Assembly (NCBI GenBank): GCA_009914755.4
Contig: CP068257.2
Location: 14,048,001 to 14,112,000, forward strand
Length of the DNA stretch: 64,000 nt
Source of the DNA: the human T2T-CHM13v2.0 reference genome, Homo sapiens
Direction of reading: 5' to 3'
In this document: positions 35,263-38,392 of the stretch, piece after piece
Layout of the letters: each line of letters starts with the position of its first letter
Position numbering within the stretch: the first letter of the stretch is position 1
Notes under the pieces: model-generated
What the model was told of the DNA's origin: nothing
The model's input: only the letters and a program-made list of their open reading frames with translations
Database searches by the model: none
Position numbers and translations under genes: made by a program

Positions 35263-37772
35263 TTTGGGGGGATACATTCAAACCACAGCATTGTTACACA
35301 CAAAATATTTCATATTATATGAAATATGTCACTTAACATTTTTACCTGAATGTCAACAACATAGAGTAATGCAGCAGTTTAGAAGTTATTAAATAATATC
35401 TTGAGGATATATAATTCCGACACACATGCATATTAAAGCTGACTCATACAACACAATTGTCACGGCGCAAATTTAAAAAATGAGTTAGGAAATCCCAGCG
35501 ATGGGTTTTGTGTGCCAATTTATCTCAATTGCTCAAATTTCTCTAATTATTCATCCCAATTGTAAGCCTTCTAAAAAGGAATGCCTATGAGGAAACTTGA
35601 AATTTTCTTCTCAATGTTCTTCAGTACAACAGTTAAAAATATTTAAAGAAATGCTGAGTAAGTAGGAAACCCTCAGAAGTAAGCTGAAAATGAACAGTCT
35701 CAGTGGGCAAATAGGTCTACCATATAAAAGCTCTATTTGATGATTATCTATTGTAAGATCATCTTTTTTTTTCTGTATGGAAGTAACAAATTTAACTCAG
35801 AGAAAAGTTGTATTGCCAAATTCTTGAAATTAAACCTTAGTATCTGGCAACATTTTTCCTCCCATGGTACTAGATTACTAGATTTTTATGTTAAATTTAA
35901 TTTTCTTGAATTCAAATGTATGAGCTTGATTTCTAAAAAACAAACAAACAAACCAAAAAACCAAAACCCTCATATGGAGAAACATGAAGTTAGCATATAA
36001 ACAAGAAAAGAAGAAACTTTGATCTATAAATGAAGAAAAATGGGTTTTGATAAGCTCTCTTTGACAGGTCACCCTCCTTGGGCTTCAGAGTTATAAAAAA
36101 ATCGATACGTGAGATTAGAGATGTGACAGTATTTCTAAATTTCTGTTTCCAACCGTTTCATGACTTTTCATTTCCTCTAGAAAAGACATAGGATATTAAT
36201 ATAATAAGATTTGCAATTTGTTAAATATCAAATGAGTCAACAAATATGAAGCTTCAAGGAAAAGGTGACAACAGGTGGTACAAGACATCTGAGCTGCAGA
36301 ACAAAGATGGTTGTAAAGTGCACAGAACTGTTACAAAGCCTTAAGAGCTACTATAATCCATGATTATTAAATAACACCACATACTATTTCAATTAGCATT
36401 TGCCAAGCTTGCTTTCCTTGTCATTGGATTAAAAATTATACCCGGATTTTCAAGTGTATTCTATTTGTGACAATATGCATTGATAATTTCTCTCCTCACA
36501 CTGCTGCACTCTCACCTCCGTTCCCAGATTAGCTCCTGGAACTCGAGATATTTTTGTGGCTAGAGATTGCTTTCTTAATGTTAGATTTTCCTTACAATTC
36601 CATATATAGTCAAGCATTCCATGCATGGTAGTTAATTGTTTGCTTAATTTGGCAACTGGGATATTAGAATTATGTATCATTAGGCAGTGATATTTTTGTA
36701 AGGTTGTTTGCTAGATAGATCCTATTTCATTTATATTAAGTCTTGGGAAGATAAACTTTATTTTTCCAGAGCCTAGCAGTGACTGACACATATTCGAATG
36801 AATGAAGGTAGATAGAAAATGTCTATATTCATTTACGTAATGATTAGTTAAGGAGAAAAGTACTTCCCAGCATAAAGATTTCTGGCAACCCTTTGCTTAT
36901 TTGACTTTTCCCTTCAGGCAAGTTCAAGGCTTGTGAAATTCCTAGAAAGGCGAGGGGAGAGAACGCGTGACACAGAAAGGGGCCGGAGTTCGGGACCCTA
37001 CGCAGTTTTGGGACGTTATGGGCATGGAGGGAAATGTTTGCTTTGGAGGCTTTGGGTAAGCTAGGGATCCGACAAGCCCTGGGCGCAGGGAGGAACGCTG
37101 CCCTCCGGCCTCCAGTCGCGCTCCCCGAAGCCCAGCGCCAGCGTCGCGCAACCTGCCGCAGGGGCGGCTCCCGGGCCAGGCAGCCAGGCGCGCCCTCGCC
37201 CCACCCGGGAACGCCAGGCCCGCGCAGGGAGGGGCGGGGCTCCATGGCGGCCCCGCCCCGCCGCCCGGAGGGTCACAATGTAGGGTTAGGGCGGCCGGCG
37301 GGCGGGGCTCTGCGGGGGAGGAGCCGCCGGGCGGGGGCGGGGATGGCGCGTGGGGGAGGGGAGGGAGGAGGACTCGCGGAGGGAGGAGGACAACGCCATT
37401 CCGGGCGGCCGCTCCCTCCGTCCCCTCTCTCCCTTCCCCAAAGCAGCCCGCGGACCGGCAGCAAAGGAACGTGCGAACGCGTGACGCCGCCCGACTGGCT
37501 CGCGCTCTCCCGTGCCCCGGCGTCCTCCGCCCGCTCATGGCCCGGGCCGCCGCGGACGAGCGGCGCTGAGGCGGGCCGCGTGGAGACGTGAGGCGGCCGC
37601 CGTGGCCCTCACAGTCGGCGTTTCGCCGCCTGCCCGCGGTGCCCGCGCACGCCGGCCGCCATCGCCTTCGCGCCTGGCTGGCGGGGGCGCTGTCCTCCCA
37701 GGCCGTCCGCGCCGCTCCCTGGAGCTCGGCGGAGCGCGGCAGCCAGGGCCGGCGGAGGCGCGAGGAGCCGGG

Positions 37773-37776
<4 letters not shown>

Positions 37777-37801
<25 letters not shown>
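37777..37801 (+). repeat. (GCC)n / (CCG)8 trinucleotide repeat in the 5' leader, ending 8 nt upstream of the ATG
   Basis: caccgccgccgccgccgccgccgccgcgggggccATG. Confidence 0.95.
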
Positions 37802-37804
<3 letters not shown>

Positions 37805-37809
37805 GGGCC

Positions 37810-37854
37810 ATGACCGTGGAGCAGAACGTGCTGCAGCAGAGCGCGGCGCAGAAG
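37810..37854 (+). CDS. First coding exon (15 codons, [15 protein letters not shown]) of an unidentified protein-coding gene; phase-0 exon end followed by a GT donor
   Basis: ATG in good Kozak context (G at -3, A at +4: gggggccATGa). The open frame ends in a strong 5' splice site, cag aag|gtgagg. The exon sits at the 3' edge of the CpG island; downstream sequence drops in GC and fills with Alus, consistent with an intron. I cannot assign the gene from memory. Confidence 0.6.
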
Positions 37855-38392
37855 GTGAGGCGAGTCCGCCAGCCGGCGGGCCCCACTTCTCCTTCCGACG
37901 GGCTGTCCTCTCCCGCTGCGGCCGGGCGCCCCGGCCTCGCCGCCGCCGCCTTCCCGGGCTTCCTCCCCGGTCACCCCCGGCCCCTGCCCATCGCCTCGGG
38001 GGCGTCGCGCCCAGAGCCCAGCTGCGTGTGGGAAGCAGAGTGTAGTTTGCGGGCTTCAATCCACTTCCTTCTGCCGATTGTTTTCCCGTAGCAGACGGTG
38101 CCAGGTATTGAGAGCGACCCTCACATTCCTACAGTGCTCTGTGTGGCATCTTAATGAAACTTTATTCTCTCCCCTTAAATGAGAAAGAATAGCTAGTTGT
38201 CATCCTTTCTGAACCGATTTTGTCTTTCAAAGGTAGTAGTGTACCAGGCCTGCTATTTTGCAAAACGGTCTCCACCAAAATCGAATTACCTGCCTCGCGG
38301 GGCAGGCGTGTTGACCAGGTGGACTCTAGAAGTAGGTGGTTTGCTTGGTTTCTTTTCCTTTTAAGGTTTCCCTTTCTTCTTCTTCTTTTCTG

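What the first reader, a model, noticed from the sequence alone, without database searches (positions are those of the whole stretch)
36930..38100. CpG-island promoter and first coding exon of a gene I cannot identify
The only non-repeat, functional-looking element in the window. It is a ~1.2-kb CpG island with Sp1 GC boxes and no TATA box. A short exon sits at its 3' edge: ATG in Kozak context, 15 codons ([15 protein letters not shown]), then a strong consensus donor (AAG|GTGAGG) at 37854/37855. Downstream the GC content drops and the sequence fills with Alus, as expected for a first intron. I cannot match the peptide to a gene from memory, so the gene identity is unknown to me. Nothing in the sequence itself indicates an undescribed locus, and a database search would settle it. 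If this is exon 1 of a plus-strand gene, everything from 37855 to the end of the window (more than 26 kb) is intron 1; I found no convincing exon 2.
Basis: partly seen in the sequence, partly recalled or inferred. Interest (0 to 1): 0.55.

Follow-up and report, generated by a model that had tools for sequence, protein, structure and literature searches.

The report
USP25 gene promoter and first exon

Summary
Window 36901-38150 is a 1.25-kb CpG island (GC 0.73, CpG o/e 0.93; whole window 0.39 and 0.26). It has GC boxes and no TATA. An ATG at 37810 opens 15 codons ([15 protein letters not shown]), followed by AAG|GTGAGG at 37854/37855.

The unidentified gene is USP25 (ubiquitin carboxyl-terminal hydrolase 25). 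Database proteins with that name, and PDB chains 2mux_A and 5o71_A, carry the same 15 residues followed by HQQTF. The window is collinear over about 35 kb, at 91-92% identity, with the USP25 locus of the langur Pygathrix nigripes. Two spliced mammalian transcript contigs align to the window up to exactly 37854 and then continue with exon 2.

In the langur, exon 2 lies 31.7 kb downstream. The ATG-plus-donor signals alone are not significant (10 similar combinations in the window). The identification rests on homology.

This is ordinary and already known. Minor extras: a conserved 10-codon upstream ORF, a nearly invariant stretch of 5' leader, and a conserved intron-proximal block with an ETS-like motif.

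The parts
36901..38150 (.). CpG island spanning the USP25 promoter, exon 1 and the first ~300 bp of intron 1
   Evidence: 1250 bp, GC 0.73, CpG o/e 0.93, 156 CpG; the only large island in the window. The 1-kb bin 37001-38000 has GC 0.774 against 0.30-0.54 in every other bin.
37231..37239 (+). GC box (GGGGCGGGG, Sp1-type consensus)
   Evidence: One of only two exact matches in the 64-kb window; both lie in the island. Motif match only; binding was not tested.
37334..37342 (+). GC box (GGGGCGGGG, Sp1-type consensus)
   Evidence: Second exact match. Motif match only.
37251..37300 (+). Conserved block in the proximal promoter
   Evidence: 92% identical to narwhal and 100% to langur, against 60-84% (narwhal) in neighbouring 50-bp bins. 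Its role is inferred.
37385..37854 (+). USP25 exon 1 (5' end approximate; 3' end exact)
   Evidence: Spliced transcript contig L003 aligns to window 37385-37854, and L004 aligns from 37471, with its own 5' end projecting to about 37449. Both end at 37854. The true start site in this species was not measured, so the 5' limit is a lower bound taken from orthologous mRNAs.
37537..37569 (+). Upstream ORF in the 5' leader (MARAAADERR, stop TGA), in frame with the main ORF
   Evidence: It is the only other ATG between 37380 and 37810. The uATG is present in all 5 aligned sequences: window, langur, narwhal and 2 mRNAs. Translation was not tested.
37651..37750 (+). Nearly invariant segment of the 5' leader
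   Evidence: 96-98% identical to narwhal and 96-100% to langur; long runs of invariant columns across 5 sequences. Function unknown.
37810..37854 (+). Coding part of USP25 exon 1: codons 1-15, [15 protein letters not shown]
   Evidence: Translation. The exact 15-mer occurs in 18 retrieved proteins, 15 of them continuing with HQQ, and in PDB 2mux_A and 5o71_A, deposited as USP25. It is 100% identical at nucleotide level in langur and narwhal. The published USP25 RT-qPCR primer GCCATGACCGTGGAGCAGAACG equals window 37807-37828.
37852..37860 (+). Splice donor AAG|GTGAGG, phase 0, junction 37854|37855
   Evidence: The genomic sequences (window, langur, narwhal) continue with GTGAGGCGA, while the two mRNAs continue with CACCAGCAGA, which is exon 2 (HQQ). 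Proteins with alternative N-termini or intron read-through all join at H16.
37855..64000 (+). 5' part of USP25 intron 1 (incomplete; runs off the window)
   Evidence: Window 29199-64000 is collinear with langur L001 1563-35727. Langur exon 1 ends at 10234 and exon 2 is at 41940-42017, so intron 1 is 31.7 kb. No match to exon 2 in the window. Contains about 12-13 Alus.
38040..38112 (+). Conserved non-coding block about 190-260 bp into intron 1, with an ETS-like CCACTTCC (GGAAGTGG on the - strand) and a donor-like CAG|GTATTG at 38104|38105
   Evidence: Almost invariant across window, langur, marmot and narwhal. The marmot gene model P0033 uses the homologous donor, but the marmot assembly has an N gap over the real exon 1. 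Its role (regulatory element or alternative exon end) is unresolved.

Best explanation
The region is the 5' end of USP25 (ubiquitin carboxyl-terminal hydrolase 25 / ubiquitin-specific protease 25) in a hominoid genome, most probably human. A TATA-less, GC-box-rich CpG island (36901-38150) acts as the promoter. Transcription starts inside it, probably around 37385-37450, and gives a GC-rich 5' leader of about 360-425 nt that contains one short upstream ORF. Translation of USP25 starts at ATG 37810. Exon 1 contributes only residues 1-15. The transcript is spliced at AAG|GTGAGG (37854|37855, phase 0) to exon 2 ([26 protein letters not shown]), which lies about 6 kb beyond the window end across an intron of roughly 32 kb. 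Shown here: the island, the ORF, the donor, the identity of the peptide with the USP25 N-terminus, synteny with an orthologous USP25 locus, and the exact junction in orthologous spliced mRNAs. Inferred: the start-site position in this species, promoter activity (reporter assays in the literature support it), Sp1 use of the GC boxes, and human as the species.
For: Composition. Sequence, ORF and donor. Identity: the named hits of the protein search are nearly all called ubiquitin carboxyl-terminal hydrolase 25 or USP25-like. 18 retrieved sequences contain the exact 15-mer, and 15 of them continue with HQQ. PDB 2mux_A and 5o71_A ('Ubiquitin carboxyl-terminal hydrolase 25') read [23 protein letters not shown].... 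An exact 15-residue match is not expected by chance: about 3e-20 per position, which gives roughly 1e-7 over about 15 billion proteins (my estimate). Evidence independent of my recalled query: the window is collinear with the Pygathrix nigripes locus that carries the USP25 model P0003, at 90-93% identity over about 35 kb. P0003's read-through of the 5' leader matches the window's in-frame leader translation. Junction: transcript contigs L003 and L004 encode 188-194 contiguous residues in about 1 kb, so they are spliced. They align to the window at 81% and 73% identity and stop exactly at 37854, then continue with exon 2. Constraint: the coding 45 nt are 100% identical in langur and narwhal, and the bins on either side are lower (84-86% upstream, 75-82% downstream). 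Literature: USP25 lies at 21q11.2 and has 25 exons (PMC8262611). A -2000..+100 promoter fragment drives reporters and responds to GLI1 (PMC13617533). A Parkinson's-risk SNP changes promoter activity (PMC12799172). A published USP25 primer is identical to 37807-37828 (PMC13309614).
Against: No human genome or transcript database was available, so the species and chromosomal position are inferred, not shown. The start site is taken from the 5' ends of assembled transcripts of other, unidentified mammals, and those ends may be incomplete. Exon 2 is not in the window, so splicing of this exact sequence is supported by orthology only. The protein search was seeded with a continuation I recalled from memory because the tool needs at least 40 aa. 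The conclusions rest only on the retrieved sequences, not on the recalled one. GC boxes are motif matches only, and the IRF-type motifs reported for this promoter are not enriched.
Confidence: 0.97

Rival explanations
1. A chance ORF inside a CpG island that serves an unannotated or lncRNA promoter.
For: ATG + short ORF + donor combinations are common: 10 in this window. GC-rich sequence has few stop codons, and the frame stays open for 93 codons past the ATG if it is not spliced.
Against: There is an exact 15-residue match to the N-terminus of USP25 in many species and in PDB chains. Spliced orthologous mRNAs use exactly this donor. The 45 coding nt are 100% conserved to a cetacean.
Confidence: 0.01
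2. A duplicated or pseudogenised copy of the USP25 5' end rather than the functional locus. Equids, for comparison, carry many 'USP25-like' fragments that begin with the same 15-mer.
For: Dozens of Equus 'USP25-like' proteins, many of them models on one 50-Mb contig, share the 15-mer. Copies of this exon can therefore exist in some genomes.
Against: The window is collinear with the langur USP25 gene model for about 8 kb upstream and 26 kb downstream of exon 1, at a uniform 90-93% identity. The ATG, donor, upstream ORF and CpG island are all intact, and unmethylated-type CpG density is retained (o/e 0.93). It is not a processed copy, because the sequence departs from the mRNA exactly at the GT donor.
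Confidence: 0.02
3. The first exon of the paralogue USP28.
For: USP28 shares the N-terminal UBA/UIM architecture, and PDB USP28 chains are found by the search.
Against: The USP28 chains match far more weakly (E about 1e-18, against 2e-79 for USP25). They align only from query residue 80 onward (P0003 numbering), so residues 64-78, which are the exon-1 peptide, are not matched.
Confidence: 0

Closest known systems
Human USP25 (ubiquitin-specific protease 25; 21q11.2; Valero et al. 1999, as cited in PMC8262611), exon 1 and promoter
   Same: The first 15 residues are identical to those of USP25 in PDB 2mux_A/5o71_A and in named database proteins. The exon 1|exon 2 junction is the same (K15|H16). 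The intron 1 size and flanking sequence match an orthologous primate USP25 locus. A published USP25 primer matches exactly.
   Different: Nothing found. The only open point is that human origin was not directly shown. About 8% divergence from a colobine monkey fits a hominoid.
Generic housekeeping-type CpG-island promoters (TATA-less, Sp1 GC boxes, dispersed start sites)
   Same: GC 0.73, CpG o/e 0.93, multiple GC boxes, no TATA, and the island covers exon 1 and the start of intron 1.
   Different: Nothing distinctive. Start-site dispersion and any divergent antisense transcription could not be examined.
USP28, the closest paralogue
   Same: Same domain order in the protein N-terminus (UBA-like, SIM/UIM), with homology starting in exon 2.
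   Different: The exon-1-encoded N-terminus is not shared; the USP28 PDB chains do not align to it.

Membership tests
USP25 gene, exon 1 | The encoded peptide equals the N-terminus of USP25 protein | tested here: met
   The exact 15-mer [15 protein letters not shown] occurs in PDB 2mux_A and 5o71_A (USP25) and in 18 retrieved proteins, nearly all named USP25 or USP25-like.
USP25 gene, exon 1 | Splice junction after codon 15, joined to exon 2 (HQQTF...) | tested here: met
   Orthologous spliced transcripts L003 and L004 match the window up to exactly 37854 and then read CACCAGCAG, while the genomic sequences read GTGAGG. Intron read-through and alternative N-termini all join at H16. Shown by orthology, not with transcripts of this species.
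USP25 gene, exon 1 | Synteny with an orthologous USP25 locus (not a dispersed copy) | tested here: met
   Window 29199-64000 is collinear with Pygathrix nigripes L001 1563-35727 at 90-93% identity, and the gene model P0003 starts at the homologous exon.
USP25 gene, exon 1 | Exon 2 downstream on the same strand | not testable with these tools
   No match in the window. The langur intron 1 of 31.7 kb places exon 2 at about position 70,200, which is 6 kb past the window end.
USP25 gene, exon 1 | Maps to human chromosome 21q11.2 | not testable with these tools
   No human reference genome was available. At least 20 Alus show primate origin, and about 8% divergence from a colobine fits a hominoid.
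CpG island (Gardiner-Garden and Frommer criteria) | Length > 200 bp, GC > 0.50, CpG observed/expected > 0.60 | tested here: met
   1250 bp, GC 0.73, o/e 0.93.
TATA-less GC-box CpG-island promoter | No TATA box; GC boxes present | tested here: met
   0 of 48 TATAAA sites and 0 of 81 TATAWAW sites fall in 36930-38100. 2 GGGGCGGGG sites and 11 GGGCGG/CCGCCC cores fall inside it.
TATA-less GC-box CpG-island promoter | Transcription start site within the island | tested here: inconclusive
   The 5' ends of orthologous transcript contigs map to window 37385 and about 37449. These are assembled contig ends from other species, not CAGE or 5'-RACE data.
TATA-less GC-box CpG-island promoter | Drives transcription | not testable with these tools
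   Literature only: a -2000..+100 USP25 fragment is active in luciferase reporters (PMC13617533; PMC12799172). IRF7 binding is reported (Ren et al. 2016, as cited in PMC8262611).
Processed pseudogene of USP25 | Exons contiguous in genomic DNA, with no intron at the junction | tested here: not met
   The window departs from the mRNA at 37855 with GTGAGG, and exon 2 is absent from the window.
USP28 (paralogue) | N-terminal residues shared | tested here: not met
   USP28 chains 2muu_A and 2lva_A align only from query residue 80 onward, after the exon-1 peptide.

The most novel reading that the evidence does not exclude
The 5' end of USP25 may carry undescribed post-transcriptional or promoter-proximal control. 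Three features are candidates: a 10-codon upstream ORF (37537-37569) whose start codon is kept in primate, cetacean and two other mammals; a nearly invariant leader segment of about 85-100 nt (about 37651-37750) that is more conserved than most of the island; and a deeply conserved 70-bp block with an ETS-like GGAAGTGG motif and a usable donor about 250 bp into intron 1 (38040-38112). Any of these could tune USP25 dosage, which matters in Down syndrome, Alzheimer's and Parkinson's contexts.
Probability: 0.2. Interest if true: 0.25.

Novelty: already known. Interest (0 to 1): 0.06.

Why it matters
The promoter has already been used in reporter assays. Nothing about the locus is new. The analysis gives precise coordinates for exon 1, the start codon and the donor. 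It shows that the remaining 26 kb of the window is intron 1. It also flags a few conserved non-coding features (upstream ORF, leader block, intronic ETS-like block) that a USP25 specialist could test for dosage control.

Tried and rejected
I then queried with the 15-mer plus a continuation recalled from memory, and based conclusions only on the retrieved sequences.
2. A tblastn search of the window for the recalled exons 2-4 found only exon 1 and noise. This agrees with exon 2 lying beyond the window.
3. IRF/ISRE-type motif GAAANNGAAA: 10 matches against 5.8 expected, and 7 of 100 shuffles reach 10. This is uninformative about the reported IRF7 sites.
4. The sigma-70 promoter and intrinsic terminator scan is a bacterial model and does not apply to a primate locus.
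5. The Valero 2001 gene-structure paper (PMC57798) is not held. I took the intron size from the langur locus instead.
6. The GC-rich stretch at 50-52 kb was examined as a possible second functional element. It has no long ORF, only overlapping ORFs of 126 aa or less, and is not a CpG island. Positions 50126-51285 are absent from narwhal and marmot although the flanks align, so this is a lineage-specific insertion. The rest is Alu. No clear target-site duplication was found.
7. The marmot 'alternative first exon' (P0033) is best explained by an assembly gap of 1288 N over the true exon 1. It is not good evidence for an exon 1b.
8. I did not scan metagenome or genome collections for the DNA. Those hold microbial or unlabelled contigs and could not establish human origin.

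Full report

Yes.

A sliding scan (200-bp windows, GC >= 0.55 and CpG o/e >= 0.65) finds one large CpG island in the 64-kb window. It spans 36901-38150: 1250 bp, GC 0.73, o/e 0.93, 156 CpGs. The window as a whole has GC 0.39 and o/e 0.26. The only other hit is 200 bp inside an Alu.

Both GGGGCGGGG sites in the window (37231, 37334) fall in the island, as do 11 of the 17 GC-box cores. None of the 48 TATAAA sites does.

The ATG at 37810 sits in ggggccATGa (-3 G, +4 A). It opens 15 codons, [15 protein letters not shown], which run into AAG|GTGAGG at 37854|37855. An in-frame TGA lies upstream at 37567-37569, with no in-frame ATG in between.

The exon signals are not statistically remarkable on their own. 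The combination 'ATG with -3 purine, 10-100 open codons, MAG|GTRAG' occurs 7 times on the plus strand and 3 times on the minus strand of this window. The island is real on composition. The exon needs outside evidence.

**2. What is it?**

The peptide reminded me of USP25, which I treated as a lead to test. The protein-search tool needs at least 40 residues. I therefore queried with the 15-mer plus a recalled continuation and looked only at what came back.

- The named hits were nearly all 'ubiquitin carboxyl-terminal hydrolase 25' or USP25-like, from snake, echidna, shark, horse, whale and primate.
- 18 retrieved proteins contain the exact 15-mer, and 15 of them continue directly with HQQTF....
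- PDB chains 2mux_A and 5o71_A, deposited as ubiquitin carboxyl-terminal hydrolase 25, read [29 protein letters not shown]....
- The paralogue USP28 is found only weakly, and its alignment begins after the exon-1 peptide.

DNA-level evidence does not depend on my recall. One hit, P0003 from the langur Pygathrix nigripes, includes a read-through of the 5' leader. That read-through closely matches the window's own in-frame leader translation. Its genomic locus (L001) is collinear with window 29199-64000 at 90-93% identity. This level fits a hominoid-versus-colobine comparison. With at least 20 Alus in the window, the source is a primate and most probably human.

In L001, exon 1 ends at 10234, exon 2 ([26 protein letters not shown]) is at 41940-42017, exon 3 at 45302-45454 and exon 4 at 57176-57301. 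Intron 1 is therefore 31.7 kb. The window end corresponds to L001 35727, so exon 2 projects to about position 70,200, roughly 6 kb beyond the window.

**3. The splice junction**

Two contigs from public sequencing-run assemblies encode 194 and 188 contiguous USP25 residues in about 1 kb: L003 (SRR28250744, 1027 nt) and L004 (SRR20722972, 901 nt). The same residues span more than 45 kb of genome, so these contigs are spliced transcripts.

Both align to the window (81% and 73% identity), and both alignments stop at exactly 37854. In the five-way alignment, the three genomic sequences (window, langur, narwhal) read ...CAGAAG GTGAGGCGA. The two mRNAs read ...CAGAAG CACCAGCAGA.

Other database proteins join at H16 as well. 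Some read through the end of intron 1 (...FPFFQ|HQQTF), and some have alternative N-termini. This confirms a phase-0 boundary after K15.

The transcript 5' ends map to window 37385 and about 37449. This is orthology-based and approximate.

**4. Conservation**

I aligned the window with langur and narwhal across 36801-38400. Narwhal identity by 50-bp bin:

| Window bin | Narwhal identity |
|---|---|
| 37801-37850 (coding exon) | 100% (also 100% in langur) |
| 37651-37750 (leader) | 96-98% |
| 37251-37300 | 92% |
| 38001-38100 | 84-88% |
| Least conserved bins (36951-37000, 37951-38000, 38351-38400) | 47-53% |

The coding 45 nt are invariant even at synonymous sites.

**5. How it works**

This is a TATA-less, GC-box CpG-island promoter. 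It drives a long GC-rich leader, and translation starts at 37810. Exon 1 supplies only residues 1-15, which precede the UBA-like domain encoded from exon 2 onward. The retrieved proteins carry PF22566 UBA_8 and PF21909 USP_UIM_N.

Promoter activity was not measurable here, but it is documented:
- A -2000..+100 fragment drives luciferase and responds to GLI1 (PMC13617533).
- IRF7 is reported to bind two sites (Ren et al. 2016, as cited in PMC8262611).
- The Parkinson's-risk SNP rs1736020 alters promoter activity (PMC12799172).
- The gene is described as lying at 21q11.2 with 25 exons (PMC8262611).
- A published USP25 RT-qPCR forward primer, GCCATGACCGTGGAGCAGAACG, equals window 37807-37828.

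**6. Rivals**

- A chance ORF in a lncRNA promoter is excluded by the exact peptide match, the orthologous spliced transcripts and the perfect conservation.
- A dispersed or duplicated copy is unlikely, given about 35 kb of uniform synteny and intact signals. Such copies evidently exist in equids, which have dozens of 'USP25-like' models.
- A processed pseudogene is excluded by the intron.
- USP28 is excluded by the N-terminus.

**7. Novelty**

None for the main finding. This is a known gene, a known promoter and a known exon.

The features that might not be fully described are the conserved upstream ORF (37537-37569, MARAAADERR, uATG present in 5 of 5 sequences), the almost invariant leader block, and the conserved intron-proximal block 38040-38112. 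That block contains CCACTTCC (an ETS-like GGAAGTGG on the other strand) and a donor-like CAG|GTATTG.

A marmot gene model uses that donor. However, the marmot assembly has 1288 N exactly where the real exon 1 should be, so this is weak evidence for an alternative exon.

**8. Verdict**

The gene is identified as USP25. Interest is low (0.06), because the finding is already known.

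Noticed in passing
window 16083-16191 (+): A full-length match to Rfam snoU13 (RF01210): 75.6 bits against a gathering score of 46, E 9.5e-14. It lies directly 3' of an Alu and its A-rich tail. Box C (UGAUGA) is kept, but the terminal box D reads CUGG instead of CUGA, so it is probably a decayed U13 pseudogene copy.
   Followed up: partly
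window 37537-37569 (+): A 10-codon upstream ORF (MARAAADERR, stop TGA) in the USP25 5' leader, in frame with the main ORF. The uATG is conserved in window, langur, narwhal and two mammalian mRNAs. In L003 a 1-nt deletion shifts the frame, so the ORF runs 15 codons to a TAG.
   Followed up: partly
window 37651-37750 (+): A stretch of 5' leader that is 96-98% identical between this primate and a cetacean. It is more conserved than most of the promoter and nearly as conserved as the coding 45 nt. Function unknown.
   Followed up: partly
window 38040-38112 (+): A deeply conserved non-coding block about 190-260 bp into intron 1, nearly invariant in primate, marmot and narwhal. It contains CCACTTCC (ETS-like on the minus strand) and a donor-like CAG|GTATTG at 38104|38105, which a marmot gene model uses.
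   Followed up: partly
L002 9203-10490 (marmot, GCA_001458135.2): A 1288-N assembly gap sits exactly over the GC-rich USP25 island and exon 1. The annotated marmot protein (P0033, 'uncharacterized LOC125617014') therefore has an artificial N-terminus stitched from upstream sequence and intron-1 sequence.
   Followed up: yes
window 50126-51285: A GC-rich (0.48-0.62) but CpG-poor block of about 1.15 kb inside intron 1. It is absent from narwhal and marmot although both flanks align, so it is a lineage-specific insertion, probably a transposable-element or LTR fragment. It has no long ORF and no clear target-site duplication.
   Followed up: partly
protein hits P0006-P0031 etc. (Equus caballus, E. 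asinus, E. przewalskii): Equids have dozens of short 'USP25-like' protein models beginning with the same [15 protein letters not shown]. Many lie on one 50-Mb horse contig, and some are annotated as fused with olfactory-receptor models. This suggests an equid-specific amplification of the USP25 5' exons.
   Followed up: no
window 13588-59928: At least 20 Alu copies on both strands and on both sides of the island (9 full-length or nearly full-length upstream, about 12-13 downstream). Those downstream of 43.5 kb are almost all in minus orientation, that is, antisense to USP25.
   Followed up: no
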